A DNA stretch of 44,623 nt from Candidatus Micrarchaeota archaeon (GCA_964634375.1 CAZWIQ010000001.1:1200-45822), one strand, 5' to 3'. Positions 7,282 to 41,811 are shown, counted from the stretch's first letter. Numbers and translations: made by a program. The notes: a model not told the origin generated them from the letters alone.

Positions 7282-7337
7282 AAAAGTTTTCGTTTTCGCG
7301 TTCCTCTAGAAAAGGAAAAAGTAAAATTGGGGGGTAG

Positions 7338-7823
<486 letters not shown>

Positions 7824-7842
7824 GCGTCGCGTGAGAAGAAAA

Positions 7843-7900
7843 GGCGGCGTTTTGAAGCGCCGCCCGCTTACCTCCCCCTTTTCCCTTTTACGTTTTTTTC
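7843..7900 (+). terminator. GC hairpin followed by T-rich tract between atpK and atpE (possible intra-operon attenuator or terminator)
   Basis: GGCGGCG (7843-7849) pairs perfectly with CGCCGCC (7858-7864). It is followed by CCCCCTTTTCCCTTTTACGTTTTTTTCC. Confidence 0.35.
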
Positions 7901-7924
7901 CGGTCGGAGGAACTTCAAGAAAAA

Positions 7925-7954
7925 TCGAGAAACGTCGAGAACCGTCGAGAAAGG
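7925..7954 (+). repeat. Three tandem 10-bp direct repeats, TCGAGAA(A/C)(C/G)G
   Basis: tcgagaaacg / tcgagaaccg / tcgagaaagg, contiguous, 34-63 bp upstream of the atpE start. Confidence 0.6.
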
Positions 7955-7987
7955 CCGGGAAAAGGTCAAGGAAAGAGTTGGTGCCTG

Positions 7988-8608
7988 TTGCACGGAATAG
8001 ACCGCGTGGAAAAAGCGATTATTGAAAACGCCGAACGCAAGGCGGACGAAACCGTCAGCGAAGCGAAGCGCCGCGCTGCCGAAATCGCCGCCAAAAGCGA
8101 CGCCGAGGCGGGCGCGCTTGAACGCAAAGTGCTCGGCGACGCGGAAAAGCAGGCGTCGCTCGCGCGGGAACGCGTCGTAGCGGACGCGCGCATGCACGTC
8201 GCGAACGAAGTCGTGGAAGCGAAGAACCGCGTTCTCGACTCGGTTTTCGTCGACGCGCTTGACGCGCTCGTCAAGTGGAAGAAGCGGAACGCGAGCGATT
8301 ACAAGAAGTGGGTTTCGCGCCTTGTCGCGGGAGCGACGCGCGGTAAAACCGGCGCGAGCGGCGCGAGCGGTGCGAGCGGCGTGCAACTCGTTTTCGCTAG
8401 CGACGACGCGAAGTTGTTCAAAAACGATTACTCCGGAAAATTCGCCGTCAGTTTTTCTGACGAGTTGAGCGGCGGCGTCATCGTGCGCTTGCCGAGCGAG
8501 AACATAGAAATCGACGAATCTTTCGAGCAAAAGATTCGCGGCGCGCGCGGCGTTTGCGCCGTCGATGTCGCGAAAATGCTTTTCGGGGGAAAGAAAAACA
8601 AGGATTGA
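7988..8608 (+). CDS. atpE: A-type ATP synthase subunit E
   Basis: VEKAIIENAERKADETVSEAKRRAAEIAAKSDAEA... forms a long N-terminal helix followed by a globular C-terminal domain, in operon position. Start is TTG 7988 or GTG 8006. Confidence 0.85.
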   Translation: MHGIDRVEKAIIENAERKADETVSEAKRRAAEIAAKSDAEAGALERKVLGDAEKQASLARERVVADARMHVANEVVEAKNRVLDSVFVDALDALVKWKKRNASDYKKWVSRLVAGATRGKTGASGASGASGVQLVFASDDAKLFKNDYSGKFAVSFSDELSGGVIVRLPSENIEIDESFEQKIRGARGVCAVDVAKMLFGGKKNKD

Positions 8609-8617
8609 ACGGCGTGA

Positions 8618-9718
8618 TTGGATTTGTTCGTTGAAATCGTTTGCGTCGGGGCGGGCGCCGCGCTTGCAGCGAAAGCAGCGCGAGTCGTGCACGACACGTG
8701 GCGCGACGCGTCGAACTACGCGCGCGCGACGGGAATCGTTTACGGCGCTTGGAGCAAGCTCATTCCGCGCGAGAAAATAAACGACTTGAAGAGCGCGCGC
8801 ACCGTCGAAGAAGTGGCCCGCGTGTGCTTCGAGGCGGGTTACGCGGAGCTTCCCCAAGGAACCGCGTTGATCGCGGAATACGAGGCCGGCGTGCAAAAAC
8901 ACTTGCGCAACCACTTCGCGCCTCTTTTCGCGGCAATCGAGGACAAGCGGTTCGTGGCGATCGTCAAAGCGCGTCACGATTACGCGAACGCGGGGTTGTT
9001 TTTCCAGGCGCGCGCCGCTGGCGCGGCCGGCGCGACCAGCGGGCGCAAGCCGGCGTTCTCGATTCTCGGAAACATAGATTTTGATTCACTGTGGAGCAAA
9101 CCGCTCGACGCTTGTTACGCTGCGCTTCCCCCGCGTTTGGCGGCGGCGGCTCGCGCGGGAGTAAAGCGCGCGGGCGAAAATCCTCGAACGGACTCGAATT
9201 CGGTTACGCTGGAAATCCAGAAAGCGTTGTACGCGGAATTGTTCGATTCGACTCGCGGAAACCCGTTTTTTGAACGCGTTTTGTCGCACCAAGTAGACCT
9301 AGTCAACCTCAAGTTGTTGTTCAAAAGCAATTTGTTGGGCGAGCGTTTGCTGCTCGAACGCGGTTACGTCGTGGGCGGAACGGTTTCGCTGGCCGCGTTT
9401 CGCAAGTCGTTCGGCAAGACGAACCGCGAAATTCTCGCGGCGTTGAGGGGCGAGGTGGTCGAGCGCGCGGCGAAGCGCGGGCTCGGCGAGTTCGAGCGCA
9501 CCGGGTTTTGGGCGTCGTTCGACAAGGCGTGCGACGAAGAGTTCTTCGACTTCCTGAGCCATTTTGCGCGTTTTTGCGGCGCGGGCCCGGAAATCGTTTA
9601 CTATTATTATGCGATGAAGTCGAACGAGGCGGCGAACGTTCTCAAAATCCTCAAAGCGAAGAAAGTCGGCGCAGGGCGCGAGGTAATGGATTTGGTTTTG
9701 GTTTCGTCGCTCGCTTGA
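8618..9718 (+). CDS. atpC: A-type ATP synthase subunit C (V-type d/AC39 family)
   Basis: 366 aa all-helical protein in the expected operon position between E and F. Contains YYYYAMKSNEAANVLKILKAK-type C-terminal repeats. Confidence 0.8.
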   Translation: MDLFVEIVCVGAGAALAAKAARVVHDTWRDASNYARATGIVYGAWSKLIPREKINDLKSARTVEEVARVCFEAGYAELPQGTALIAEYEAGVQKHLRNHFAPLFAAIEDKRFVAIVKARHDYANAGLFFQARAAGAAGATSGRKPAFSILGNIDFDSLWSKPLDACYAALPPRLAAAARAGVKRAGENPRTDSNSVTLEIQKALYAELFDSTRGNPFFERVLSHQVDLVNLKLLFKSNLLGERLLLERGYVVGGTVSLAAFRKSFGKTNREILAALRGEVVERAAKRGLGEFERTGFWASFDKACDEEFFDFLSHFARFCGAGPEIVYYYYAMKSNEAANVLKILKAKKVGAGREVMDLVLVSSLA

Positions 9719-9739
9719 AAAAATAATTGAAAAATTAGG

Positions 9740-10081
9740 GTGAATCGTTTTTTGGAGTATGAAATCGCGGTCGTGGGCCCGAAAGAAATTTGCGTTGGCT
9801 TCAAGGCTGCGGGGGCGGGGCGAATCGTCGAAGTCAGCGACGCGGCGCAGGCCCGCAAGGCGATCGAGTCGCTCGCGAACGACGCGGGCGTCGGGCTCGT
9901 AATAGTCGGGGAGAGCGTGGCGGGCGAGTCTCTCGACTTGATTGCGGACGTTTCGCAGAACCGTTTCCTGCCGGCCATCGCCGTCGTGCAGGATTCGGCC
10001 CAGGCGCAAAACCTGAGTTCGCGCGTGGTGAGCGCGACGATCGAACGGGCGACCGGAATCAGTTTCCTTAGCGAAAAATGA
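9740..10081 (+). CDS. atpF: A-type ATP synthase subunit F
   Basis: EIAVVGPKEICVGFKAAGAG...GLVIVGESVAG...LPAIAVV is the classic AtpF pattern. Start is GTG 9740 or TTG 9752. Confidence 0.85.
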   Translation: MNRFLEYEIAVVGPKEICVGFKAAGAGRIVEVSDAAQARKAIESLANDAGVGLVIVGESVAGESLDLIADVSQNRFLPAIAVVQDSAQAQNLSSRVVSATIERATGISFLSEK

Positions 10082-10162
10082 TTTTCGCGTTAATCGATTG
10101 TTGAATTTCGATTTTTGAATTGATTTGTTTCGAAAAAGTTTGAAGAATTGTTTTTCAGGAGC

Positions 10163-11968
10163 GTGGTGGATTTGGGCAAGATCACGAAGATTTCGGGTCC
10201 CGTCGTCACCGCTGACGGAATGAAGGGCGCGACGATGTACGAACTCGTTCGCGTTGGAAGCGAGCAGCTGCTCGGAGAAATAATCGGGCTCGAAGGCGAT
10301 ACCGCGACTATTCAAGTTTACGAGGAAACAGGCGGAATAGCGGTCGGCGAACCCGTGAAAGGCACGGGGCGCGCCCTCTCCGTGCTGCTCGGGCCCGGGC
10401 TGCTGACGAGCATTTACGACGGAATCCAGCGCCCGCTTCCGGCACTGAAGCGCAAGCAAGGAGACTGGATAAAGCGCGGGCTTTCGGCTGATGCGTTCGA
10501 CTTGAAGAAAAAATGGGATTTCAAGGCAACGCGCAAGAAAGGCGACAAGGTGAGCGGGGGCGACGTGCTCGGCACGGTGCAGGAGACGAGCGCCATCGAA
10601 CACCGCGTACTCGTTCCGCCCAACGTGAGCGGGGTAATCGAATCGATTTCGTCGGGTTCGCGAGCCGCGCTCGATGTCGTGGCAGTAGTCAAAGACGGCT
10701 GCAAAAAGCAGGAAGTGACGCTCGCGCACTGGTGGCCTGTTCGCACGCCGCGCCCCGTCAGGAACAAGCTTTTGCCCGACATCCCGCTCGTTACGGGGCA
10801 GCGCGTCGTCGACTTTCTTTTCCCGTTGGCGAAAGGCGGGACTGCAAGCGTTCCAGGACCGTTCGGAAGCGGGAAAACGGTCGTCCAACACCAACTCGCG
10901 AAGTGGAGCGACACGCAAATCGTGTTGTTCATCGGTTGCGGGGAACGCGGAAACGAGATGACCGATGTGTTAAGCGAGTTTCCGAAGCTGCAAGACCCGC
11001 ACACGGGAAAGCCGTTGATGGAGCGAACGGTTTTAATCGCGAACACGAGCGACATGCCCGTCGCGGCGCGCGAAGCAAGCATTTACACGGGCATCACGAT
11101 CGCGGAATACTACCGCGACATGGGTTACGACGTGGCGCTCATGGCCGATTCGACGAGCCGTTGGGCCGAGGCGCTTCGCGAAATTTCGGGCCGCTTGCAG
11201 GAAATGCCGAGCGAGGAAGGTTATCCCGCGTACCTCGCTTCGAGCCTAGCCGCGTTTTACGAGCGCGCGGGGCGCGCGGAAGTGCTTGGGAGCGGAGCGA
11301 AGCGCACGGGAAGCGTGAGCGTAATCGGCGCGGTTTCCCCGCCCGGCGGAGACTTTTCGGAACCAGTCACGCAGAACACGCTGCGCATCACGAAAGTTTT
11401 TTGGGGCCTCAGCGCGCGCCTCGCTTACGCGCGCCACTTTCCCGCCATCGACTGGCTGCAGAGTTATTCGCTTTACGCCGACTCGCTCGCGGGGTGGCTG
11501 AAGGCGAACGCGGGCGAGGATTTCCTGGATTTGCGCGCGAAATCCCTTTCACTGCTGCAGAAAGAGGCGGAGCTCGAAGAAATCGTGCGCCTCGTCGGAG
11601 CGGAAGCGTTGCCGGCGCGCGACAAGCTCGTGCTCGACGTGGCGCGCATGGTGCGCGAAGACTTTCTCCAGCAAAACGCGTTCGACGAAACGGATTCGTA
11701 CACGTCGCTGCGGAAACAATACGCCATGTTGAAGGCGATTATTTCGTTTCACGATTCGGCGCTCGAGCTGCTCAACGCGGGCGCGTCGTTCGAGAAAGTG
11801 CGCGGGCTCGGCGTCTGCAAGTTCATTCCGAAGTCGAAGTTCGTGAGCGAGAAGCAGCTCGCGAAGTTTGACGACGAGCTTGCGGGGCTCGCGCGGGAGG
11901 CGAAGGCGTTGCGCACCGAAACGGAGGCGGCGCGCGCAGCCGCGGAGAAAGCTCTCGAGAAAAAGTGA
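10163..11968 (+). CDS. atpA: A-type ATP synthase catalytic subunit A
   Basis: [16 protein letters not shown], Walker [10 protein letters not shown] and non-homologous-region features. No intein-sized insertion. AGGAG lies just upstream of GTG 10163/10166; the ORF opens at TTG 10148. Confidence 0.97.
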
Positions 11969-12014
11969 TGTTGAGCGTTCGGTTTTGGCGCTTGGATTTA
12001 AAGGTGGTTTTCAA

Positions 12015-13592
12015 ATGGGCGGCGTTGTTTACAAAACGGTTTCGGAAGTTGCGGGGGCGCTGATTCTCCTCGACAACGTTCAAGGCGTGAAGTACGGGGA
12101 ACTAGTTGAAATAACCCTGGCGAACGGAGAGCGGCGCAGGGGGCGCGTTCTCGAAGCGACGACGAAGACGGCTCTCGTTCAAGTGTTCGAGGGAACGCGC
12201 GGAATCGACGTGGGCGGCACGGCGGTGAAATTCACGGGCAGCGAAGTCGAACTCGGCGTTTCAACCGACATGCTCGGGCGAGTGTTCGACGGGCTGGGCG
12301 CTCCAATCGACAAAGGCCCGAAAATCGTTCCCGCCGAAAAGCGGAACGTCAACGGCAACCCCATCAACCCGTTCGCGCGCGACGAGCCGAGCGACTTCAT
12401 CGAGACGGGCGTTAGCGCGATCGATTTGATGAACACGCTCGTGCGCGGACAAAAGCTCCCGATTTTCTCGGGTTCGGGTTTGCCTCACAACGAGCTCGCC
12501 GCGCAAATCGCGAGGCAGGCGTGCGTCAAAGGAAAAAGCGAGAAGTTCGCCGTAGTTTTCGGCGGAATAGGCATTACGTTCGAGGAAGCGCAGTTCTTCA
12601 TCAACGATTTGAAGCGAACTGGCGCAATCGAACGCGCCATAATATTTCTCAACCTCGCCGACGACCCGGCCGTCGAACGAATCACGACGCCTCGCCTCGC
12701 GCTTACGGCGGCTGAATATTTAGCGTTCGAGGAAGACATGCACGTCCTCGTTTTGCTCACGGACATGAACAATTACTGCGAGTCGTTGAAGGAAATCAGC
12801 GCGGCGCGGAAAGAGGTTCCGAGCAGGCGCGGGTACCCGGGTTACATGTACACTGATCTCGCAAGCATTTACGAGCGGGCGGGGCGCATCAAGGGACGCA
12901 AAGGCTCGATCACGCAGTTCCCGATTTTGACGATGCCTGAAGACGACATCACGCACCCGATTCCCGACTTGACGGGTTACATCACGGAAGGGCAAATCGT
13001 GCTGAGCAGGGAAATGCACATGAAAGGCGTTTACCCGCCCATCAACGTGCTGCCGTGCCTCTCGCGTTTGATGAGCCACGGAATCGGAGTCGGAAAAACG
13101 CGGGAAGACCACGGCGGCGTGAGCAACCAGTTGTACGCAGCGTACGCGCGAGGCACGGAGTTGCGCGAGCTCGTTGCCGTCATCGGCGAAGCCGCGTTGA
13201 CGGAAGCGGACCGGAAATACCTCAAGTTCGCGGAAGCGTTCGAGCGCCGCTTCGTGGCGCAATCGCGCGACGAGCACCGGACCGTCGAAGATTCGCTTGG
13301 AATCGCTTGGGACTTGCTTTCGACGATTCCGTTTGAAGATTTGAAGCGTATCAAGCCTCAATTCGTGGAAAAATATTATCCGGGGCGTTCCCAGGTTTCG
13401 ATTGCCGTGCGCGAGGGGACGAAGGCGGAGAGCGAAGCGGAGACTCTCGCGGCTGAAGCGGCAGAAGCTGAAGAAGTCGAGGCTGCGTCGGAGAAAAAAA
13501 CTCGCGTTGCTGCAAAAGCTAAACCGTCGAAGGCGAAGAAGGGAAAGGCGGCGGGAGCGGCGGCAGGAAAGGCGAAGCGCGGTAAAAAGTGA
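12015..13592 (+). CDS. atpB: A-type ATP synthase subunit B, with about 68-aa Lys/Ala/Glu-rich C-terminal tail
   Basis: [17 protein letters not shown]..., [18 protein letters not shown] and [15 protein letters not shown] motifs. ATG 12015 is preceded by AAGGTGG. The ORF-track start at 11868 overlaps atpA. Confidence 0.97.
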
Positions 13593-13601
13593 TTAGCGAA
13601 A

Positions 13602-14222
13602 ATGGCGGTCAGGCGCGTTAACACGACGAGGAGCGAATTGCTCAAGCTCAAGCGGCGCACGAAGCTCGCGGGCAGAGGGCACGATTTGCTTAAGGAAAAA
13701 CGCGACGGAATAATGCGGAAGTTCATGGAACTCGTGCGCTTTTACCGTGACGAAGACGCGCGCGTGTCAAAAACGCTCGCGCTTTCGCTGAAGCGGCTCG
13801 TGCTAGCGCGCGTCACGCTTTCCGACGACGAACTGGATTCGCTCGTCGCGCTCTCGCGCCGGCGCGTCGTGCTCGAAGTCGGCGAGTCGTTTTTGATGAA
13901 CGTTAAGACGCCTACGCTGCGCGCCGTAGTGAAAGAGGAGGGCGAATGCGTTGGGCATCAAGGCACGCCGCTGGATGCGGACGTTGCGCTCGCCGAGTTC
14001 AAGCCCCTGCTGAACGAAGTCGTTCGCCTCGCGGAAACGCAGAAGAAGATTCAGTTGCTCGCGCCGGAGGCGGAGCGCACCAGGCGGCGGGTGAACGCGC
14101 TGAAGTACGTTATCCTGCCGCAGCTCAACGCCTTGATTCGGGGAATCGAGATGAAGCTCGGCGAGATGGAGCGGAGCAGTTTCGCGACGCTGTTGCGTTT
14201 GCAGGAAACAGTGTTGAAGTAA
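13602..14222 (+). CDS. atpD: A-type ATP synthase subunit D
   Basis: VNTTRSELLKLKRRTKLAGRGHDLLKEKRDGIMRKF is the canonical AtpD N-terminus. Last gene of the operon. Confidence 0.93.
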   Translation: MAVRRVNTTRSELLKLKRRTKLAGRGHDLLKEKRDGIMRKFMELVRFYRDEDARVSKTLALSLKRLVLARVTLSDDELDSLVALSRRRVVLEVGESFLMNVKTPTLRAVVKEEGECVGHQGTPLDADVALAEFKPLLNEVVRLAETQKKIQLLAPEAERTRRRVNALKYVILPQLNALIRGIEMKLGEMERSSFATLLRLQETVLK

Positions 14223-16551: not shown

Positions 16552-17643
16552 ATGAGTTTGCCGAACGGGGAATTGCGCAGGGATTACGCGGTAATCGAGC
16601 GCGGCGGCAAAGCCGCGAGCAAGGAAGACGAGGAAATACTCGAAATCTTGAAGCAAAGCGTGCCGAAAGTGGTGGTAATCGGCGCTGGCGGAAGCGGAAG
16701 CAACACGGTCAACCGCATGGCCGAAGTCGGCATCGTCGGCGCGCGCCTCGTTGCGGCGAACACGGACGCGCAGCACCTTCTCACGATAAAGTGCGACAAG
16801 AAGCTGCTTCTCGGCAGGAAAAAAACGCGCGGCTTGGGCGCGGGAAGCAACCCGGAAGTCGGCGAAGCCGCCGCCGAAGAAGCGGCCGAGGAAATGACGC
16901 AGTTGTTTGCGGGCGTAGACCTGGTTTTCGTGACTTGCGGGATGGGCGGCGGAACGGGCACGGGAAGCGCCCACATTTTCGCGCGCGAAGCCAAGAAAGC
17001 GGGCGCGCTTTGCGTTGGAGTCGTCACGCTTCCTTTCACGAGCGAAGGCACGAAGCGCATGCGCAACGCGCTTGAAGGGCTCGAGAAGCTCCGGAAGGAG
17101 TCGGACACGACGATAGTCATTCCAAACGACAAACTGCTTTTCTTCGTGCCGGACTTGCCGTTGAACGCGGCGTTCAAAGTCGCGGACAGCGTGCTCACGA
17201 ATTCCGTTAAAGGAATAACGGAGTTGATAACGAAGCCGGGGCTCGTCAACCTCGACTTCGCGGACGTGCGGACGATTCTCGGGGGAAGCGGCACCGCCGT
17301 CATCGGTTTGGGCGAGGCGGGGAACGCCGAACAACGGGACCGCGTGGTTCAAGCGGCTGAGAAAGCGCTCGCGTCGCCGCTGCTGGACCTAGACATAAAG
17401 ACGGCGGGCAAGGCGCTGATAAACATTACGGGCGGCAGCGACATGACGCTCGGCGAAGCTGAAGCGGCCGTGCAAGCGATTAGCGGCAGGATGTCGAAGG
17501 ACGCGCACGTGATTTGGGGGGCTTCAATTGACGACGGCGAAAACGCGGGAATACGCGTTTTGGCGGTTCTCGCCGGAATAACGCCTCACGCGGATTCCGG
17601 CGCGCCCGAGTCCGTGGAAGACTTGAGTTTGGAATTCGTTTGA
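16552..17643 (+). CDS. ftsZ: Cell division GTPase FtsZ
   Basis: VIGAGGSGSNTVNRM, tubulin signature GMGGGTGTGSAHI, NTDAQHL and VTLPFTSEG. Confidence 0.96.
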   Translation: MSLPNGELRRDYAVIERGGKAASKEDEEILEILKQSVPKVVVIGAGGSGSNTVNRMAEVGIVGARLVAANTDAQHLLTIKCDKKLLLGRKKTRGLGAGSNPEVGEAAAEEAAEEMTQLFAGVDLVFVTCGMGGGTGTGSAHIFAREAKKAGALCVGVVTLPFTSEGTKRMRNALEGLEKLRKESDTTIVIPNDKLLFFVPDLPLNAAFKVADSVLTNSVKGITELITKPGLVNLDFADVRTILGGSGTAVIGLGEAGNAEQRDRVVQAAEKALASPLLDLDIKTAGKALINITGGSDMTLGEAEAAVQAISGRMSKDAHVIWGASIDDGENAGIRVLAVLAGITPHADSGAPESVEDLSLEFV

Positions 17644-17711
17644 ACGTTTTGAGTGCGTTTGAGTTCAAGCAAAATTTCGCAAAATTTTTTGGTAATCCCG
17701 GGGGATTTGGA

Positions 17712-17897
17712 ATGAACGTCAAGGAATCAATCGATTCTTTCGTCACGCAGAGCAAGCGGGTTATCGCGATCACGCACAAGCCGGGGCAAGCAGAATACCG
17801 CCAAATGAGCTTGACGACCGCAATCGGCGTGGCGCTCATCGGGCTGGCGGGCTTCGCAATCGCGATGCTCGCGCTAGTCCTCAAAGGAAAATTCTAA
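17712..17897 (+). CDS. secE: Protein translocase subunit SecE / Sec61-gamma
   Basis: 61 aa: MNVKESIDSFVTQSKRVIAITHKPGQAEYRQMSLTTAIGVALIGLAGFAIAMLALVL. Single C-terminal TM helix, in the conserved position before spt5. Confidence 0.8.
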   Translation: MNVKESIDSFVTQSKRVIAITHKPGQAEYRQMSLTTAIGVALIGLAGFAIAMLALVLKGKF

Positions 17898-17935
17898 CGT
17901 TGACGACGTTGACGTTTAAGGGAGGGGTTTCAACA

Positions 17936-18370
17936 GTGTTGTTCGCTTACCGCGTGACCGCCGGGCAGGAAAGCATCGTCGCCGACTTGCTGCAGGAAAA
18001 AATCAAGAAGACGCGCGCGCCCATCGCCGCGCTCATCGTTTCCCCGCGCCTGAAAGGCTATTTGATCGTCGAGGCGAGCAACGAAGTCGAAGTGAAGCGG
18101 CTCACCGCCGGCGTCCCGCACGTGAAAGGCGTTTTGCAGAAAACGATTTCGCTCGACGAAATAAAGGAACTCCTCGAAAGCAAGCCGCAGGAACTCGCGC
18201 TCGTCAAAGGAGACTTCATCGAAATCACGAGCGGCCCCTTCAAAGGCGAAAAAGCCAAGGTCGTGCGCATCGACAAGGAAAAAGAGGAAGTGACGATCGA
18301 ACTCGTCGAGGTCGCGGTCCCGATTCCCGTCACGATAAAGATGGGCACGATAAAGGCGTTGCCGCAGTAA
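17936..18370 (+). CDS. spt5: Transcription elongation factor Spt5 (NusG)
   Basis: VLFAYRVTAGQESIVADLL forms the NGN domain; the KOW motif is KGDFIEITSGPFKGEKAKVVRID. GTG 17936 is preceded by GGGAGGGG; the ORF opens at 17900. Confidence 0.9.
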   Translation: MLFAYRVTAGQESIVADLLQEKIKKTRAPIAALIVSPRLKGYLIVEASNEVEVKRLTAGVPHVKGVLQKTISLDEIKELLESKPQELALVKGDFIEITSGPFKGEKAKVVRIDKEKEEVTIELVEVAVPIPVTIKMGTIKALPQ

Positions 18371-18426
18371 ACTTCGTTTCCTTTTTCCCGCTTTCTTTTT
18401 TCTTTATTTTTCTTTTAGGTTTCCGT
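18371..18426 (+). terminator. T-rich tract downstream of spt5 (archaeal oligo-T terminator candidate)
   Basis: cctttttcccgctttcttttttctttatttttctttt sits in the 56-bp convergent spacer. Confidence 0.4.
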
Positions 18427-19329
18427 TCAGCCGATGCTGCAGCCGCTCCTCGCGTCGCTCGCCATCTCGCCGAAAGAATAAGCTCCTTTGTAGCGCCCGT
18501 TTCTTCCAGTCCAGTACGGGGTTCCGAAGCCGCGCGGCATCAAATCGAAGTGCGCGGCGGTGCTGCACGGGTAAACGCCGGCGCGCGTGAACAAGCCGTT
18601 CGCCGCTTCAACCCACTTGAGCTGCTCGCTCACGCTTCCCACGTAAACGTCGACGGCCATCGCGTACATGTGCGGGCTGTTGCTCACGCCTCCGCTCGTT
18701 TGCTTCGTGCGGTAGCCGCTCGTAATCCTTCCCGGGCCGCTTCGCGGGTAAGGCGTCACACCCATCTTCGTGCAAAGATTTTCGTAGGCTTTAAGCACTT
18801 CCGGATGGTATTTCCGAATCGTCGCAATGTCCAGCGAGCCTTGCTTCGCCACTGTGCCCGAAAGTTTTTCCGGGACCGCCGCGCTCAACGCGTTCCTATA
18901 GTTTTGAAACGCGTTCGCGGAGAAAGTCGCCGAATCCGAGTATTTAGCGGGAAGCGTCGTTTTTTCTACGTACTGCGTCGCTTCTTCTTCGACGGGCGGT
19001 TCCTCGCCCGGGCTTTCAATGAGGATTTCGGGTTCGCCTTCCGACACTGGCAGAGCGGGCGCGGCCGCGCCGGCGATGAGGCAAACCGAACTGGAATCGC
19101 AAGCCTCGTCGTCGCCGCCTCCGCCGTAGTTGCCGCTGCCGCCGCTCGGCGCGGCGGAATCCGCCGCGGCAGCCGGCGCGGCGAACGCTATCAGGACTGC
19201 GAGCAAGAGCGAGAATGCGAGCGAGAACGCAACGCAGGTGATTAAGGCGGTGCGCCGAACGCTGTTAGCCATGAAGAATCCTGAGGCGGCGCGGCTAAAT
19301 AATGCTTTGCTTTTTATTTTCGCTTTCAA
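18427..19329 (-). CDS. Secreted/membrane-anchored Zn-dependent peptidoglycan peptidase, M15 (VanY/YcbK-like) fold
   Basis: N-terminal TM/signal is TALITCVAFSLAFSLLLAVLIAFAAPAAA. The C-terminal domain has SGYRTKQTSGGVSNSPHMYAMAVD (H-x6-D) and AAHFDL, the H..D...H zinc triad arrangement of M15 peptidases. Alternative start is ATG 19272. Confidence 0.65.
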   Translation of the reverse strand: MKAKIKSKALFSRAASGFFMANSVRRTALITCVAFSLAFSLLLAVLIAFAAPAAAADSAAPSGGSGNYGGGGDDEACDSSSVCLIAGAAAPALPVSEGEPEILIESPGEEPPVEEEATQYVEKTTLPAKYSDSATFSANAFQNYRNALSAAVPEKLSGTVAKQGSLDIATIRKYHPEVLKAYENLCTKMGVTPYPRSGPGRITSGYRTKQTSGGVSNSPHMYAMAVDVYVGSVSEQLKWVEAANGLFTRAGVYPCSTAAHFDLMPRGFGTPYWTGRNGRYKGAYSFGEMASDARSGCSIG

Positions 19330-19347
19330 CCGCGTTTCGACCGCGTT

Positions 19348-21330
19348 TCACCCGCGGTTTTCAAAGTAATTTTTTATCCCGCTGAAAATCGCTTGCGCTG
19401 CTTGCGACTGGAACCCGGGTTTGAACGCGTTCGCGTTGCCCATTCCCGTCACTTCAACGATGACTGCGGGCGCGTAAGTCTTGTGCAGCAAGCCGAGGCG
19501 GAAGCCGCGCTTGTAATCGGGCGTGGGCCCCCTGCTTTCGCCCGCAGTCTTTATCTTGCTTATTTCGCCGTCGATTGCGAAGGCGAGTTTCTTGCTTTCA
19601 ACGCACGTTTCACTGCAGTAAGCCGCCGGCCCGTTTCCAGCCAAAACCTCGGGGTAATACTCGAGGGGTTGAGTCGCGCCGGAGTGGTCGTGGTGCACGC
19701 TTACGACGACGTCCGCGTTCCAAGCGTTCGCGATTACCGCGCGGGCAGTCAAGTTGAGGAAGCCGTCAATGTTTGCGCTTCTGCTCAATGCGACTATCGC
19801 GCCATTCGCCTCCAAAACTTCCTTGAGTTTCAGCGCGACTGCGAGGTTCAAGTCGCACTCCCAAACGCGTTTGCCTTTAACGAACGCGCCTGCGCCGTAA
19901 CCGTAATCGTCAGGCGAGTCGCCGTACTTTGCGTTCGGCGCTGCAGCGCTTCCGTGCCCCGCGTCGATGAACACACGCTTGCCTTTCAGCCCGCTCGTCT
20001 TGCTCCAAGCGTCGGGTTCGCCGAACGATTGCGGGTAAACGGTTTTCCTTGCTTCAGCCGCGGCGAGTTCGCGCCACGGGTCGGCGGGGTCGCGCAGCTT
20101 CTCGTGCAGCACCTCGACTTTCAACTCGACGGATTCGTATTCCAGCGTTTTCGGGAACCAGAGCTTGAGCGTGACGGAGTCTTGCGCGAACGGGAAGAAC
20201 GCGCCAGAGAGTTTAACGCGCGAGTAATCCGCTTTAACGAGCAAAAGCGTTTCGCTCGTCGAACTGATTTTTTCGGCGGAGAACGCGGCCGCGTTTCCTC
20301 CTTCGAACGAGTACAAGAATTCGGCGGGCTGCCCGTCTCGAGCGACGGCGAGCATTCGCTGGTCTCTCGGAGTTGCTTCCGTCACCGTGAATTCTGTCGA
20401 GCCGGAAACCGCGATTCCGCCGCCGCTCGCGGTTTTGTAGTCGCCGGCGTTCAGCGGAGGTTCGGCGGGCGCCGTTTGCTTCATCGTTGCGGCAGTCATC
20501 GCTTGCTCGAAGCCGTTTCTCGCGATTGATTCGGCGAGCTCGTCGGCGTAAGCGAACCACTCGTCAAGCGTTTTTCCGGTGTTTCTCGCTTCAACGAACG
20601 CGTCGTTCAAGTTTTTCTCGAGCGCGGCGCTTTGCTTCGCGTTTAACTCGAGCGCGTTCAGTTTGGCCGCGAGCCGCGCGAACGCGGTTTTTTGTTTGCC
20701 GCTCAAGCCGGGCTTCGTAAGCAAGCGAATAGGTTTTACGTCCAGTTTCTCCGCGTTCACTTCGGCTTGAGCGTAAGTGCGCAGAATGCCTCCGCCCGCG
20801 ATCCGCAATTCGGTGACGTAAACGTTTGGCGCGATTTCCTCGCTTAAAACGATTCTTTCGCCCGCTTCGTCTTGAAAACGCAGTTCGCCCGCCTTCGCTT
20901 GGCCGGCTTTCCGCGTTTCCCCGTTTTCGGGCGCGAGCCCGCGTTGCGCGCCCGCGTAACGGTAATAGCGTTCAAGCAACGGCGGAGTTACTTCGACTAG
21001 TACCGCGCCGAACTCGTCGTCTCCCGCGTTCGCGAAATCCACTTCGTCTTCGTAACGCCCGCCGCCGAAACGGATTTTCTCCTTCATGGCGATGCTGTTT
21101 TTCTCGAAGACGTATTCGTTCGCGGTTTCAAGCACTTCAATCATGTTTTCAACCGGGCCGCTCCCTGTCGGAGTCGGCGCGGCGTCAAGGGAGCCGGCGT
21201 CGCCCGCTTGGCCGGTGCGAGTCTTGCTTTCGCTGATTTTGCCGTAAGCGTAGTAACCGAAGCCTGCGAGCAAGAGCACGGCGATTAAGGCGAGCGCGAG
21301 CGAGGCTGCTTGGGCTTTGGATCCGTTCAT
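19348..21330 (-). CDS. Membrane-anchored N-acetylmuramoyl-L-alanine amidase (Amidase_3 domain) with a large unknown ectodomain
   Basis: N-terminal TM is AASLALALIAVLLLAGFGYYAY. The C-terminal roughly 200 aa carry VFIDAGHGS, WECDLNLAVALKLKEVLEANGAIVALSR, ADVVVSVHHDH and PAVIVEVTGMGN. These match the Amidase_3 Zn-ligand and catalytic-Glu blocks. Confidence 0.8.
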   Translation of the reverse strand: MNGSKAQAASLALALIAVLLLAGFGYYAYGKISESKTRTGQAGDAGSLDAAPTPTGSGPVENMIEVLETANEYVFEKNSIAMKEKIRFGGGRYEDEVDFANAGDDEFGAVLVEVTPPLLERYYRYAGAQRGLAPENGETRKAGQAKAGELRFQDEAGERIVLSEEIAPNVYVTELRIAGGGILRTYAQAEVNAEKLDVKPIRLLTKPGLSGKQKTAFARLAAKLNALELNAKQSAALEKNLNDAFVEARNTGKTLDEWFAYADELAESIARNGFEQAMTAATMKQTAPAEPPLNAGDYKTASGGGIAVSGSTEFTVTEATPRDQRMLAVARDGQPAEFLYSFEGGNAAAFSAEKISSTSETLLLVKADYSRVKLSGAFFPFAQDSVTLKLWFPKTLEYESVELKVEVLHEKLRDPADPWRELAAAEARKTVYPQSFGEPDAWSKTSGLKGKRVFIDAGHGSAAAPNAKYGDSPDDYGYGAGAFVKGKRVWECDLNLAVALKLKEVLEANGAIVALSRSANIDGFLNLTARAVIANAWNADVVVSVHHDHSGATQPLEYYPEVLAGNGPAAYCSETCVESKKLAFAIDGEISKIKTAGESRGPTPDYKRGFRLGLLHKTYAPAVIVEVTGMGNANAFKPGFQSQAAQAIFSGIKNYFENRG

Positions 21331-21363
21331 GCCTCAATCACGCCTCAATCGCGCCTCAAACCG
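21331..21363 (-). repeat. Three tandem 11-bp repeats directly upstream of the amidase start codon, each carrying a GAGG Shine-Dalgarno-like core
   Basis: Plus strand reads gcctcaatcac / gcctcaatcgc / gcctcaaaccg. In mRNA sense this is CGGUUUGAGGC-GCGAUUGAGGC-GUGAUUGAGGC-AUG. Confidence 0.6.
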
Positions 21364-21548
21364 TTTATTGCGAGTTTGCGAGTTCGTCCATTATTTTTGG
21401 GTTTGGGAAGTAATTTAAACCTCCTTGCAGCCAAATAAGTGTTCTTCTGTTCCTATTTTAAGCGGTTGGCGGCAACTATGAGGTTACTCCGCGGGATTTG
21501 AGTTTGGAGTTTGCGGAAAAAAACCCGCGTAAAAATTTGCGTAATAAG

Positions 21549-22055
21549 GTGGTGTTGTTTTTGGCGAAAATAACGGTTCAAGCACTCGTCGAAGGAGGCA
21601 AGGCGACTCCGGCTCCGCCGTTGGGGCCGAGCCTCGCGCCGACCGGCGTGAACATAGGGCAAGTGATTGCGGCGATAAACGAGAAAACGCGCGACTTCGC
21701 GGGAATGAACGTGCCCGTGAAAGTCGTCGTCGACAAAGCGTCGCGTTCGTTCGAAATCGAAGTCGGCACGCCGCCGACGAGCGCGCTCATAAAGAAGGAA
21801 CTCGGGCTCAAGGAGCCGGTGAAGGAGGAAGCGGGCGTGAAGGGAAAGAAGACTATCGGCGACCTGTCGATCGCGCAGTGCGTCAAGATCGCGAGCGCGA
21901 AAGCCAGCGCGTCGATGGCTCGCTCGCTGAAGGCGGGAGTAAAGGAAGTAATCGGCACGTGCTTGAGCCTCGGCGTCACGATTGAAGGAAAGAACGCGAA
22001 AATCGCGAGCAAGGAAATTGATGACGGCGCATACGATTCGCAACTCAAAAACTAA
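21549..22055 (+). CDS. rpl11: 50S ribosomal protein L11 (uL11)
   Basis: VQALVEGGKATPAPPLGPSLAPTGVNIGQVIAAINEKT and EIEVGTPPTSALIKKELG. GTG/TTG starts at 21549-21555 give the normal length; the ORF opens at 21498. Confidence 0.92.
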   Translation: MVLFLAKITVQALVEGGKATPAPPLGPSLAPTGVNIGQVIAAINEKTRDFAGMNVPVKVVVDKASRSFEIEVGTPPTSALIKKELGLKEPVKEEAGVKGKKTIGDLSIAQCVKIASAKASASMARSLKAGVKEVIGTCLSLGVTIEGKNAKIASKEIDDGAYDSQLKN

Positions 22056-22099: not shown

Positions 22100-22759
22100 T
22101 TGAAGGTGACTCGGAAAGACTTGATGTACTGGGGAACGCTGGCAATCATCGTTTTCTTTTTCCTCGAGTTCTTTTGGCCCTTGTTGTACTCGCAAGAGGA
22201 GGCGGCCGCCACGCCCACGCCTGAAGCGCTCAAGCAGTTCACGGGCCGCGCGATGGCGAACGCGCGAGTGCTTTACTTCGCCGGCGAAGGCTTCGTTTCC
22301 TGCAATTCGTCGAAAAACCGCAGCGGTTTCATCGACGAACTGCGTTCTTCGCCTGAAGTGCAAAACGTTTTCGCCGTCAGCGAAAGCGGTTTCATGCTGA
22401 AAGTGAACGCCAGCAACGAGACGCGCGCAAGCGAGGCGTTCGCGCGGCTCGCTTCGCTCGTTTCTTTCGGCTGCGGCGAGGGCTCCAGCGTTTTGCGCAA
22501 CGCAGGGCTGGAACTCGAGTCGCGGAACTTCTCGTTCAGCAGCCTCGAGTCGTTGAACGACTCGCGCACGCTTTACCCGAAGGACGTGCTCGACGCTTTT
22601 CGCGCCTCCGGCATCCGCGACGTGCAAGGATTCGTCGACGCGGAAGTGCCGCTCAACGAGTCGGTGACTATTTCGATTACGGTGCAAATGCTCGGCGACC
22701 GGCTCGTCGACAAGCCTCAAATCGAGCAACTGCGTTTCACGAAGCCTTTCGCGCAATGA
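22100..22759 (+). CDS. Hypothetical membrane-anchored extracellular protein
   Basis: N-terminal TM is WGTLAIIVFFFLEFFWPLLY. There are six N-x-S/T sequons (NSS, NAS, NET, NFS, NDS, NES). No domain recognised. Confidence 0.5.
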   Translation: MKVTRKDLMYWGTLAIIVFFFLEFFWPLLYSQEEAAATPTPEALKQFTGRAMANARVLYFAGEGFVSCNSSKNRSGFIDELRSSPEVQNVFAVSESGFMLKVNASNETRASEAFARLASLVSFGCGEGSSVLRNAGLELESRNFSFSSLESLNDSRTLYPKDVLDAFRASGIRDVQGFVDAEVPLNESVTISITVQMLGDRLVDKPQIEQLRFTKPFAQ

Positions 22760-29804: not shown

Positions 29805-29929
29805 GGGCCTGTAACTCAGCCTGGTCTAGAGTGCCAGTCTTATACGAAGCCCGCGCCGGAACTTTTTGGTTTTTCGACGCGTGCGGCTGGGTGAACTGGA
29901 AGGCCGGGGTTCAAATCCCCGCAGGCCCA
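29805..29929 (+). tRNA. tRNA-Ile (anticodon UAU) interrupted by a 49-nt intron at the canonical 37/38 position
   Basis: Acceptor GGGCCTG/CAGGCCC, D arm ACTC-AGCCTGGTCTA-GAGT, anticodon stem CCAGT (29834-29838)/ACTGG (29895-29899), T arm CGGGG-TTCAAAT-CCCCG, discriminator A. Exon junction gives the loop C-U-UAU-A-A. The overall sequence resembles archaeal tRNA-Ile. Confidence 0.8.
29845..29893 (+). other. tRNA intron (49 nt) with bulge-helix-bulge-like context
   Basis: A hand fold gives a 4-bp central helix: C32-G, U33-G, U34-G and A35-U with intron nt 44-47. It also gives a 3-nt 3' bulge (UG|A) and an inner helix (intron 5-12 with 37-43). The 5' bulge appears enlarged (relaxed BHB). Confidence 0.6.
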
Positions 29930-37810: not shown

Positions 37811-37919
37811 ATTGTGCGGCGCTGCGTCGTGCTGCGTGATTCTTCGCGCCGCCCCGCTTTTTGTTTTGGGAAACGGGTTTTTTAAGCGCGCTTGCGTTAG
37901 TTGTTTTCGTGAGCTGCTA

Positions 37920-38918: not shown

Positions 38919-38951
38919 CTTTCCTAATTTTAGCGTTTTCTCCGAGCGGTT

Positions 38952-40556: not shown

Positions 40557-40602
40557 AACCGCTTGCCGCGTAACATTAAAGCGAAAGACGGAATAAAAAC
40601 GC

Positions 40603-41778: not shown

Positions 41779-41811
41779 ACGCTGCACGAAAAATCCGAAA
41801 CACTATTTGCG

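What the first reader, a model, noticed from the sequence alone, without database searches (positions are those of the whole stretch)
18427..21330. Two secreted bacterial-type murein hydrolases inserted antisense between spt5 and rpl11
**Synteny break.** ftsZ-secE-spt5 (16552-18370, + strand) and rpl11 (21549-22055, + strand) belong to one of the most conserved archaeal gene strings. Here they are separated by a 2.9-kb two-gene unit on the opposite strand, with an 18-bp spacer between the two genes.

**Upstream gene.** Its C-terminal half carries every Amidase_3 (N-acetylmuramoyl-L-alanine amidase) block I know: DAGHG, the Glu in WECDLNL, SVHHDH and the PAVIVEVTGMGN catalytic-Glu block.

**Downstream gene.** It has an M15-type SGYR...SPH-x6-D...H-x-D zinc triad.

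**Export and composition.** Both proteins begin with a TM/signal segment, so they are predicted to be exported. Archaea do not make murein, so the substrate would have to be bacterial cell wall. This suggests antagonism, feeding on or attachment to bacteria rather than self cell-wall turnover. Codon composition looks native, which argues against a recent transfer.
Basis: partly seen in the sequence, partly recalled or inferred. Interest (0 to 1): 0.8.

Follow-up and report, generated by a model that had tools for sequence, protein, structure and literature searches.

The report
Swappable wall-cutting enzymes in tiny archaea
A small DPANN archaeon (Micrarchaeota) carries two exported enzymes of the kinds that cut bacterial cell wall, at a chromosomal site where its relatives keep the same anchoring module but swap between five different wall-cutting enzyme heads, which suggests this lineage routinely attacks or feeds on bacteria.

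Summary
Two antisense genes lie between spt5 and rpl11. One is a 660-aa protein ending in an Amidase_3 domain (80 bits; His/Glu/His/Glu intact). The other is a 300-aa protein ending in an M15A/M15_3-type zinc peptidase (R207, H220-x6-D227, H260-x-D262). The M15 call is borderline on Pfam but supported by 34 of 68 homologues, a PHROG endolysin match and the fold. Each protein has one N-terminal hydrophobic segment. Codon usage is native, and a separate metagenome contig reproduces the spt5|M15|amidase junctions.

The organism is a Norongarragalinales-like Micrarchaeota. Comparison of 36 related loci adds the new part. Twelve have spt5 directly abutting rpl11. Sixteen genomes, including this one, carry antisense membrane-anchored proteins there. 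These share a ~270-aa N-terminal module with no Pfam match, while their C-terminal heads vary among NlpC/P60, M15_3, Amidase_3, M23 and SLT. Near-identical N-termini are joined to unrelated heads.

Peptidoglycan is the only substrate common to all five head types, so bacterial murein is the likely target. Antagonism, predation or attachment, and scavenging cannot be told apart here.

Archaeal peptidoglycan hydrolases are already published. This module and the fixed polymorphic locus appear not to be. I rate it a new variant of a known kind, interest about 0.55.

The parts
19348..21330 (-). Gene for a 660-aa exported or anchored N-acetylmuramoyl-L-alanine amidase (anchor + variable region + shared module + Amidase_3)
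   Evidence: ORF. Pfam Amidase_3 at 80 bits. PHROG endolysin phrog_435 at E 1.6e-17. 62% identical orthologue P0002 in a Norongarragalinales MAG.
21241..21309 (-). N-terminal hydrophobic helix of the amidase (about aa 8-30), a signal anchor or signal peptide
   Evidence: Kyte-Doolittle 19-residue maximum of 2.22 at aa 8, with no later TM segment. The cleavage type was not determined.
20065..20886 (-). Shared ~270-aa N-terminal module (amidase aa 149-422): beta-hairpins, three-helix bundle, Pro-rich linker, Ig-like beta-sandwich. Proposed stalk or adhesion module.
   Evidence: Iterated HMM finds it in 19 island proteins from 16 genomes. First-pass BLAST links are, and the alignment is A3. No Pfam match. 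AF2 model has mean pLDDT 63. Foldseek gives only generic Ig-like adhesin and chaperone folds.
19369..19974 (-). Amidase_3 catalytic domain (aa 453-654). Zn ligands H459, E491, H546 and catalytic E626.
   Evidence: CwlV 1jwq, E 1e-10; residues conserved across island and bacterial homologues.
19330..19347 (.). 18-bp spacer between the amidase stop codon and the TTG start of the M15 gene. It lies inside an 11-bp x3 tandem array (19324-19356).
18427..19329 (-). Gene for a 300-aa exported M15A/M15_3-type zinc peptidase (signal segment + Gly/Pro/Glu-rich linker + catalytic domain). It lacks the shared module.
   Evidence: ORF. Family evidence. The module HMM does not hit it.
19165..19251 (-). Hydrophobic signal segment of the M15 protein (about aa 27-55), followed by AAPAAAAD, an AxA-like site
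   Evidence: Kyte-Doolittle maximum of 2.71 at aa 29. An alternative ATG at codon 20, with an AGGA 6 nt upstream, would give a classical signal peptide.
18430..18915 (-). M15 catalytic domain (aa 139-300): R207, H220, D227, H260, D262
   Evidence: AF2 model has mean pLDDT 90.2. The residues are invariant or nearly invariant in the 68-sequence alignment. Best PDB match is 1lbu. Best viral matches are 'Peptidase M15A, C-terminal' proteins.
18371..18426 (.). Convergent intergenic region between spt5 and the M15 gene, T-rich on the + strand
   Evidence: Reproduced in separate contig L042.
21331..21548 (.). Divergent intergenic region between the amidase gene and rpl11. It contains an 11-bp x3 tandem array abutting the amidase ATG (21327-21359) and A/T-rich TATA-like elements.
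   Evidence: Promoter assignment is inference only.
17900..18370 (+). spt5 (NGN + KOW), the left boundary of the island
   Evidence: TIGR00405, 150 bits.
21549..22055 (+). rpl11, the right boundary of the island (the ORF opens at 21498)
   Evidence: PRK01143, 200 bits.

Best explanation
**What it is.** The two genes are this genome's version of a lineage-wide, chromosomally fixed locus in Norongarragalinales-type Micrarchaeota. The locus encodes exported peptidoglycan hydrolases, probably tethered to the cell surface, that act on bacterial murein.

**How it likely works.** The amidase is anchored by one N-terminal helix. A ~270-aa module (helical bundle plus Ig-like sandwich) holds the enzyme away from the membrane. 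Its zinc Amidase_3 head cuts the MurNAc-L-Ala bond. The small partner is exported by its own signal segment. Its M15A/M15_3-type zinc peptidase cuts within the stem peptide or its cross-links. Together they would strip and un-crosslink the wall of a bacterium touching the archaeon. An archaeon without murein needs no immunity protein.

**Evolution.** Recombination keeps the N-terminal part and replaces the C-terminal head (NlpC/P60, M15_3, Amidase_3, M23, SLT). This is as expected if the target walls differ or evolve.

**Biological role.** The most likely role is contact-dependent attack on bacteria, as competitors, prey or hosts.

**Shown versus inferred.**
- Shown: homology, intact catalytic residues, export segments, native composition, conserved position, head swapping.
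- Inferred: the substrate, the tethering, co-transcription and the ecological role.
For: - **Amidase family.** Amidase_3 at 80 bits. E491, H546 and E626 align to CwlV, and all four catalytic residues are conserved among homologues.
- **M15 family.** 34 of 68 homologues hit M15_3, the motif columns are invariant, phrog_894 matches at E 1.2e-8, the AF2 model has pLDDT 90, and the best structural matches are 1lbu and phage M15A proteins.
- **Export.** Every full-length island protein has a single N-terminal hydrophobic helix. L003 and L004 have a lipobox (AFAGC).
- **Conserved position.** 16 genomes carry such genes antisense right after spt5. 12 related loci have spt5 abutting rpl11. The island clusters in one clade on an FtsZ+Spt5 tree.
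- **Five head types.** Five peptidoglycan-specific catalytic families occur at this one site.
- **Head replacement.** L003 and L004 are 80-95% identical over aa 1-240 and unrelated after about aa 400 (M15 versus P60). L011 equals L010 plus an added Amidase_3 domain.
- **Fast evolution.** The amidase is 62% identical to its orthologue, against 90% for Spt5 and 84% for FtsZ in the same genome pair.
- **Native and archaeal.** Codon usage is native and the surrounding chromosome is typical archaeal.
- **Not phage.** No phage or viral relatives by tblastn or the IMG/VR scan.
- **Not a misassembly.** The spt5, M15 and amidase junctions are reproduced in L042.
- **Precedent.** Archaeal PGHs from Halogranum kill bacteria (PMC12352652). 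An extracellular M23B was noted in Ca. Norongarragalina (PMC8561730).
Against: - No enzymatic, expression or localisation data exist.
- Neither protein has a recognised peptidoglycan-binding domain.
- The M15 Pfam score is below the cutoff for the full protein, and its PDB fold match is weak (E 0.034, TM 0.37).
- The model of the shared module is low-confidence (pLDDT 63), so 'stalk or adhesin' is conjecture.
- Known Micrarchaeota hosts are wall-less or S-layer archaea, and Norongarragalinales were recently argued to be possibly free-living, with no mention of bacteria (PMC12892359).
- I could not check the whole genome for murein or pseudomurein synthesis genes.
- M15, M23 and NlpC/P60 peptidases can in principle cut non-murein peptides.
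Confidence: 0.62

Rival explanations
1. Nutrient scavenging. The surface-bound hydrolases digest free murein fragments and bacterial necromass in groundwater or sediment, releasing amino sugars and D/L-amino-acid peptides that the archaeon imports. There is no live target.
For: The domain evidence is the same as for the main explanation. Surface tethering would keep the products near the cell. Norongarragalinales have broad metabolism and may be free-living (PMC12892359). D-amino-acid and necromass recycling by archaea was discussed for the same site where the order was described (PMC8561730).
Against: No muropeptide or amino-sugar transporter or catabolic genes sit next to the island. Rapid divergence and wholesale head replacement between near-identical genomes fit an arms race better than bulk polymer digestion. 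This rival cannot be excluded computationally.
Confidence: 0.2
2. Self-wall remodelling. This Micrarchaeota lineage builds a murein-like or pseudomurein-like sacculus, and these are its autolysins. That would fit their position next to ftsZ.
For: The island lies two genes from ftsZ in a conserved string. The proteins are membrane-anchored, as many bacterial autolysins are. The locus is conserved across a clade.
Against: No Mur-ligase, MraY/MurG or penicillin-binding genes occur in the 44.6-kb window. Murein is not known in archaea, and pseudomurein is confined to Methanobacteria and Methanopyri (established knowledge, restated in PMC12352652). Essential autolysins would not swap between five enzyme classes that cut different bonds, or be lost in nested relatives such as L005 and L013. 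The sister clade has the same ftsZ-secE-spt5 string without any hydrolase.
Confidence: 0.06
3. The domains have been repurposed for a non-murein substrate. They might process the archaeon's own surface proteins, or cut the envelope (S-layer or glycoprotein) of an archaeal host during episymbiosis.
For: All experimentally known Micrarchaeota hosts are archaea (PMC12892359). There is no recognised peptidoglycan-binding domain, and an unknown Ig-like module could bind something else. Peptidase folds such as M23 and NlpC/P60 are versatile.
Against: Amidase_3 and SLT act on MurNAc-containing glycan, which archaeal envelopes lack. Independent recruitment of five murein-specific families to one site is hard to explain with another substrate. 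Murein-type catalytic residues are fully retained.
Confidence: 0.08
4. A remnant of an integrated virus or other mobile element that carries endolysin genes, or a chimeric assembly with bacterial or phage DNA.
For: Both catalytic domains match PHROG endolysin families, and the best structural matches for M15 are phage proteins. The pair interrupts a conserved gene string.
Against: There are no integrase, capsid, terminase or holin genes and no att-like tRNA at the site. There are no hits in 50,697 phage genomes or in IMG/VR. Codon usage is native. The same position is occupied in 15 other genomes from different studies. The junctions are reproduced in L042. The closest M15 relatives are on large archaeal contigs.
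Confidence: 0.02

Closest known systems
Modular archaeal peptidoglycan hydrolases (Strock et al. 2025, PLoS Biol, PMC12352652), e.g. Woldo and Danwoldo of Halogranum salarium
   Same: These are archaeal genes with bacterial-type murein-cleaving catalytic domains. They are exported and show domain shuffling and patchy distribution. They are interpreted, and for two enzymes demonstrated, as antibacterial weapons. Nanoarchaeota (DPANN) are enriched for them.
   Different: That survey required a Pfam cell-wall-binding domain such as LysM or PG_binding_1. The proteins here have none and carry an undescribed ~270-aa module instead. In the held, partly truncated supplement the survey lists three Micrarchaeota PGHs (LysM+SLT twice, PG_binding_3+GH108), none from Norongarragalinales. 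Its PGHs are biased to plasmids and small contigs, whereas these sit at a fixed site in the core chromosome across a clade.
Large extracellular lytic murein transglycosylase proteins of Woesearchaeota and Pacearchaeota (Rinke 2013 and Castelle 2015 as cited in Castelle 2021, PMC8204110; Vigneron 2022, PMC9723730)
   Same: These are DPANN archaea encoding exported murein-degrading enzymes. The published hypothesis is that they are episymbionts or predators of bacteria.
   Different: They belong to a different phylum and a different catalytic family (GH23/SLT only), in very large proteins of up to 3,000 aa. No conserved locus or head swapping has been described for them.
Bacterial Amidase_3 autolysins (CwlV, CwlD, AmiA/B/C) and phage Amidase_3 endolysins
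   Same: The catalytic domain covers the full Pfam model, and the His/Glu/His zinc site and catalytic Glu are intact.
   Different: Identity to the closest bacterial domains is only about 30%. There is no AMIN, SPOR, LysM or SH3 targeting domain. The host is an archaeon with no known murein.
M15A / Peptidase_M15_3 and M15_2 (MepK) LAS-type zinc peptidases; Streptomyces albus Zn DD-peptidase (1lbu)
   Same: They share the SGYR...SxH-x6-D...H-x-D motif (zinc ligands are assigned by analogy with this family) and a LAS-like fold.
   Different: The match is sub-threshold on the Pfam M15_3 model for the whole protein. The closest relatives are themselves multi-domain archaeal proteins (P0006 with the same module; P0007-type with pilin-like N-termini) rather than small phage endolysins. 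Bond specificity is unknown.
Polymorphic toxin systems (Rhs, CDI, MafB type) of bacteria
   Same: They work in a similar way at the genetic level. A conserved N-terminal delivery or presentation part is joined to C-terminal effector domains that are replaced by recombination between close relatives.
   Different: There are no immunity genes, no Rhs, filamentous-haemagglutinin or PT-specific pre-toxin domains, and no dedicated secretion system next to the locus. The effectors are wall hydrolases rather than nucleases or pore formers. This is an analogy only, not membership.

Membership tests
Amidase_3 (PF01520) N-acetylmuramoyl-L-alanine amidase | Score above the Pfam gathering threshold over the full-length model | tested here: met
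   80 bits against a cutoff of 27. Model positions 1-174 of 174 align to aa 453-654.
Amidase_3 (PF01520) N-acetylmuramoyl-L-alanine amidase | Zn ligands His/Glu/His plus the catalytic Glu | tested here: met
   H459, E491, H546 and E626 are present. E491, H546 and E626 align to CwlV 1jwq. All four are conserved in 4 island and 2 bacterial homologues.
Amidase_3 (PF01520) N-acetylmuramoyl-L-alanine amidase | Hydrolysis of the MurNAc-L-Ala bond of murein | not testable with these tools
   Needs recombinant protein on sacculi and muropeptide LC-MS.
Peptidase M15 (M15_3 / M15A, LAS superfamily) | Score above the Pfam gathering threshold | tested here: inconclusive
   The whole protein scores 21.9 bits against a cutoff of 23.2. 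The domain alone scores 23.2, equal to the cutoff. Only model positions 44-84 align.
Peptidase M15 (M15_3 / M15A, LAS superfamily) | Homologues belong to the family (transitive homology) | tested here: met
   The exhaustive HMMER search gave 71 hits. Of 68 scanned, 34 hit M15_3 (best E 1.4e-15) and 13 hit M15_2. PHROG endolysin phrog_894 matches at E 1.2e-8.
Peptidase M15 (M15_3 / M15A, LAS superfamily) | SxH-x6-D ... H(-x-D) zinc and catalytic motif | tested here: met
   H220, D227, H260 and D262 are present. They are invariant or nearly invariant in the 68-sequence alignment. The profile aligns SGYR..SxH..D to 1lbu.
Peptidase M15 (M15_3 / M15A, LAS superfamily) | LAS-type fold | tested here: inconclusive
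   The AF2 model has pLDDT 90. The top PDB hit is 1lbu at probability 0.93, but with E 0.034 and TM 0.37, followed by MepA. BFVD top hits are all 'Peptidase M15A C-terminal' at E about 1e-4 and TM 0.4-0.5. The direction is consistent but the scores are modest. Zinc-site geometry was not inspected.
Modular archaeal PGH as defined by Strock et al. 2025 | At least one Pfam peptidoglycan-cleaving catalytic domain | tested here: met
   Amidase_3 qualifies. M15_3 is on their list but is borderline here.
Modular archaeal PGH as defined by Strock et al. 2025 | [quoted passage not shown] | tested here: not met
   No such domain at E <= 0.01 in either window protein, or at E <= 0.05 in the 17 island proteins scanned (L007's pair). 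These proteins therefore fall outside that operational definition, though they probably work the same way.
Phage or prophage endolysin cassette | Viral genomic context (holin, structural or integration genes) or close viral homologues | tested here: not met
   The neighbours are housekeeping genes. No hits in phage genomes or IMG/VR.
Pseudomurein endoisopeptidase (PeiW/PeiP type) | Pei-type cysteine peptidase domain with pseudomurein-binding repeats (features from general knowledge) | tested here: not met
   The Pfam and NCBIfam scans returned only Amidase_3 and M15 or MepK-type matches.
Polymorphic-toxin-like locus (analogy) | Conserved N-terminal region with recombinational replacement of the C-terminal effector | tested here: met
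   The L003/L004 and L010/L011 identity profiles, and five head families on one module.
Polymorphic-toxin-like locus (analogy) | Cognate immunity gene downstream of each effector | tested here: not met
   No conserved small downstream gene. The island ends at spt5. An immunity gene is arguably unnecessary in a murein-free producer.

The most novel reading that the evidence does not exclude
Norongarragalinales-type Micrarchaeota, whose partners are unknown and which were recently proposed to be free-living, are in fact bacterivores or episymbionts of bacteria. On this reading they present a polymorphic set of surface-tethered murein hydrolases from a dedicated recombination hot spot next to spt5. 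A lineage-specific stalk or adhesion module carries interchangeable heads (amidase, M15, NlpC/P60, M23, SLT) that track the wall chemotype of the local prey or host. This would be an archaeal counterpart of bacterial polymorphic toxin loci, and a genomic marker for predicting archaeon-bacterium interactions.
Probability: 0.3. Interest if true: 0.8.

Novelty: new variant of a known kind. Interest (0 to 1): 0.55.

Why it matters
Interactions between archaea and bacteria are poorly documented. All cultured DPANN archaea have archaeal hosts, and the partners of Micrarchaeota outside acid mine drainage are unknown.

A murein-hydrolase locus that is conserved in position but variable in enzyme type, in a whole Micrarchaeota clade, gives three things:
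- A concrete, testable handle on whether these organisms attack, attach to or feed on bacteria.
- A set of divergent, naturally recombined muralytic enzymes and a new presentation module, none of which would be found by surveys that require known wall-binding domains.
- A simple synteny marker (the spt5|rpl11 gap) for finding more such genes in MAGs.

If the substrate is confirmed, the set of head types could be used to predict target wall chemotypes.

Tried and rejected
- **Word-indexed homology searches.** Searches with the whole amidase, its catalytic domain and the module alignment returned only 3, 1 and 1 hits. They were too insensitive for phylogeny. The one exhaustive HMMER job went to the M15 domain.
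- **M15 against PDB sequences.** phmmer with the M15 protein found nothing meaningful. Only the family profile reached 1lbu.
- **Partner protein in the closest relative.** Direct comparison of the window's M15 protein with the 617-aa partner in L001 showed no homology. That partner turned out to carry a different head (NlpC/P60).
- **Module structure.** A 5-sequence alignment gave only pLDDT 63, and the fold search gave generic Ig-like hits. The module's function therefore stays open.
- **Viral origin.** tblastn against phages and an IMG/VR scan were negative. A viral scan with the module alignment was not possible because it has no conserved stretch.
- **Other metagenome amidases.** L043 and L044 from the metagenome scan lack both the module and spt5, so they are unrelated to the island.
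- **Type IV pilin-like signal.** The amidase N-terminus (KAQAAS) fits my recalled FlaFind-like regular expression, as does L006 (RAQSTS). Most island proteins do not, so I dropped this as a general feature.
- **11-bp tandem arrays.** I checked whether the arrays at both start codons are conserved in relatives. They are not, so their meaning is unknown.
- **dN/dS.** Not attempted, because at 62% protein identity synonymous sites would be saturated.

Full report
**1. What is in the sequence**

The window is a typical archaeal chromosome segment. It carries an A-type ATPase operon (5317-14222), tRNA-Gln, UbiA, IF-2B, FtsZ, SecE and Spt5. After the feature it carries L11, a conserved unknown membrane protein, FKBP, Cdc6/Orc1, an intron-containing tRNA, Nep1, L31e, eIF6, FtsY and a type IV pilus-type ATPase with two platform proteins.

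Two ORFs lie on the minus strand between spt5 (ending at 18370) and rpl11 (starting at 21549, ORF from 21498). They are 19348-21330 (660 aa) and 18427-19329 (300 aa), separated by 18 bp. Their GC, GC3 and relative codon usage cannot be told apart from 19 neighbouring genes.

**2. The two proteins**

*Amidase.* The 660-aa protein has a full-length Amidase_3 domain at aa 453-654, scoring 80 bits against a cutoff of 27. The catalytic residues are H459, E491, H546 and E626. E491, H546 and E626 align to the solved amidase CwlV (1jwq, E 1e-10). All four are conserved in the amidases of relatives and in bacterial homologues.

*M15 peptidase.* The 300-aa protein falls just below the Pfam Peptidase_M15_3 threshold: 21.9 bits for the whole protein and 23.2 for the domain alone, against a cutoff of 23.2. 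Other evidence supports the assignment:
- An exhaustive HMMER search of 1.84 billion representatives found 71 relatives.
- Of 68 aligned, 34 hit M15_3 and 13 hit M15_2/MepK.
- R207, H220, D227, Y253 and H260 are invariant and D262 is nearly so.
- The family profile aligns the SGYR...SxH...D block to the Zn DD-peptidase 1lbu.
- A confident AF2 model (pLDDT 90) finds 1lbu and MepA as its best PDB matches, though weakly.
- The same model finds phage 'Peptidase M15A C-terminal' proteins as its best viral matches.
- The PHROG endolysin family phrog_894 matches at E 1.2e-8.

*Export.* Each protein has exactly one N-terminal hydrophobic segment. I could not run a signal-peptide predictor, so whether that segment is cleaved or acts as an anchor is open.

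**3. Whose genome, and is it an assembly artefact?**

The best homologue of the amidase (62% identity) is from a Candidatus Norongarragalinales MAG (Micrarchaeia, DPANN). That contig has the same order: UbiA, IF-2B, FtsZ, SecE, Spt5, then two antisense genes.

A JGI metagenome contig (L042) is 99.93% identical to window 18032-19486. It covers the spt5|M15 and M15|amidase junctions. It may derive from the same sample.

There are no phage-type neighbours and no hits in phage genomes or IMG/VR. Chimerism and prophage origin are therefore very unlikely.

**4. The comparative result**

A scan of one genome per GTDB species with Spt5 returned 36 loci: 35 from Micrarchaeota and one from Thermoplasmatota.

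- In 12 loci, spt5 is followed within about 65 bp by rpl11. One more has only a small DUF4389 gene in the gap.
- In 16 genomes, including this one, spt5 is followed by one or two antisense genes of 430-860 aa, each with a single N-terminal hydrophobic helix.

Pfam assigns their C-terminal parts to five families:

| Head | Loci |
|---|---|
| NlpC/P60 | L004, L006, L009, L010, L015, L028, L031; weakly L007 |
| Peptidase_M15_3 | L003, window |
| Amidase_3 | window, L007, L021 |
| NlpC/P60 + Amidase_3 | L011 |
| M23 | L030, L033 |
| M23 + SLT | L018 |
| Metallophos + M23 | L019 |

All of these proteins share a ~270-aa N-terminal module (amidase aa 149-422) with no Pfam match. The window's short M15 protein and a 429-aa partner in L010 and L011 lack it.

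Head replacement is directly visible. L003 and L004 are 80-95% identical over their first 240 residues, including a lipobox signal. They are about 50% identical up to residue 400 and unrelated beyond it (M15 versus NlpC/P60). L011 equals L010 plus an extra Amidase_3 domain.

On a rough FtsZ+Spt5 neighbour-joining tree, the island occupies one large clade containing the window. A few nested genomes lack it, and the sister clade mostly has spt5 adjacent to rpl11.

The island proteins evolve much faster than their neighbours: 62% identity against 90% for Spt5 in the same genome pair.

Module-bearing hydrolases also exist at other loci. P0006 (module + M15) sits on a 282-452-kb archaeal contig away from spt5.

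**5. Mechanism**

Amidase_3 cuts the MurNAc-L-Ala bond. SLT cuts the glycan. NlpC/P60, M15 and M23 cut different stem or cross-bridge peptide bonds (established knowledge of these families). The only substrate common to all five is bacterial peptidoglycan.

The window contains no murein-synthesis genes, and murein is not known in archaea. The most economical reading is that exported, probably surface-tethered enzymes act on bacterial walls.

The module is modelled at low confidence as beta-hairpins, a three-helix bundle, a Pro-rich linker and an Ig-like sandwich. Only generic Ig-like adhesin and chaperone matches were found. It plausibly serves as a stalk or adhesion part. That is conjecture.

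Rapid divergence and head swapping fit an arms race or changing targets. I cannot separate antagonism, predation, attachment to a bacterial host and necromass scavenging with these tools.

**6. Relation to what is known**

- Archaeal peptidoglycan hydrolases are established. Strock et al. 2025 found modular PGHs in about 5% of archaeal genomes, enriched in Nanoarchaeota, and showed killing of a bacterium by two Halogranum enzymes.
- That survey required a Pfam wall-binding domain. In the held supplement it lists only three Micrarchaeota PGHs of other architectures, none from Norongarragalinales.
- Lytic transglycosylases in Woesearchaeota and Pacearchaeota have been linked to possible bacterial hosts or predation.
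- The paper describing Norongarragalinales noted one extracellular M23B peptidase and the same possible roles.
- A 2025 study of 163 Micrarchaeota genomes argues that Norongarragalinales may be free-living and does not mention peptidoglycan.

I found no description of the shared module, of the fixed spt5-adjacent locus or of its head polymorphism. The literature held here is incomplete.

**7. Verdict**

The two genes themselves are new members of a known kind.

The locus they belong to is a new variant of that kind. It is a conserved site in the core chromosome, with a novel presentation module and five interchangeable muralytic heads.

I rate interest as moderate (0.55). It is not surprising in principle after 2025, but it is a concrete lead to the unknown ecology of a DPANN lineage and a source of unusual muralytic enzymes.

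Noticed in passing
window 21327-21359 and 19324-19356: An 11-bp x3 tandem array overlaps each gene's start codon. On the gene strand the units are TTGAGGCG(C/T)GA for the amidase and CGCGGTTGAAA for M15. After rotation the two units are identical at 7 of 11 positions. The amidase-type pattern occurs nowhere else in the window (0.01 expected by chance).
   Followed up: partly
window 37812-42732: A type IV pilus-like assembly cluster lies about 17 kb downstream. It comprises a CarboxypepD_reg/SdrD-like surface protein, a T2SSE-family ATPase and two T2SSF platform proteins. It could be relevant to cell-cell contact. No link to the hydrolases was tested.
   Followed up: no
window 22100-22759: A 219-aa ORF with an N-terminal hydrophobic segment and no Pfam or PHROG match lies between rpl11 and the FKBP gene. 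It is conserved in the same position in L003, L004 and L006 (35-64% identity). Here rpl11 is not followed by the usual rpl1-rpl10-rpl12 genes.
   Followed up: partly
window 29805-29929: Rfam finds a 125-nt tRNA (55.6 bits) that ARAGORN missed. It is presumably an intron-containing archaeal tRNA.
   Followed up: no
L010 5056-6345 and L011 5088-6377: A second island gene in these two relatives encodes a conserved 429-aa protein with an N-terminal anchor. It lacks the shared module and has no significant Pfam domain (only a faint M23 signal, E 0.035, in L010). Its role is unknown.
   Followed up: no
P0007, P0009, P0010, P0012, P0014, P0022, P0023, P0030, P0039 (locus L041 and an ENA contig): The next-closest M15 homologues are 325-390-aa proteins with KKG-type, pilin-like N-termini and a shared 'IDQSAKYS' region. 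P0007 lies on an archaeal-looking contig (RadA and RPA neighbours) in a run of small unannotated genes. This suggests a wider DPANN family of M15 proteins with other presentation modules.
   Followed up: partly
L019 492-3062 and L018 1819-4047: These relatives have unusual head combinations on the same module: calcineurin-like phosphoesterase (Metallophos) + M23 in L019, and M23 + SLT in L018. L021 has about 220 unassigned residues after its Amidase_3 domain.
   Followed up: no
L039/L040 6001-8349 (P0006): A module + M15 protein of 782 aa has an extra ~190-aa C-terminal extension. It is encoded away from spt5, next to NifS/NifU genes and just upstream of a 2,817-aa surface protein with Big_1/CarboxypepD_reg-like repeats.
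   Followed up: no
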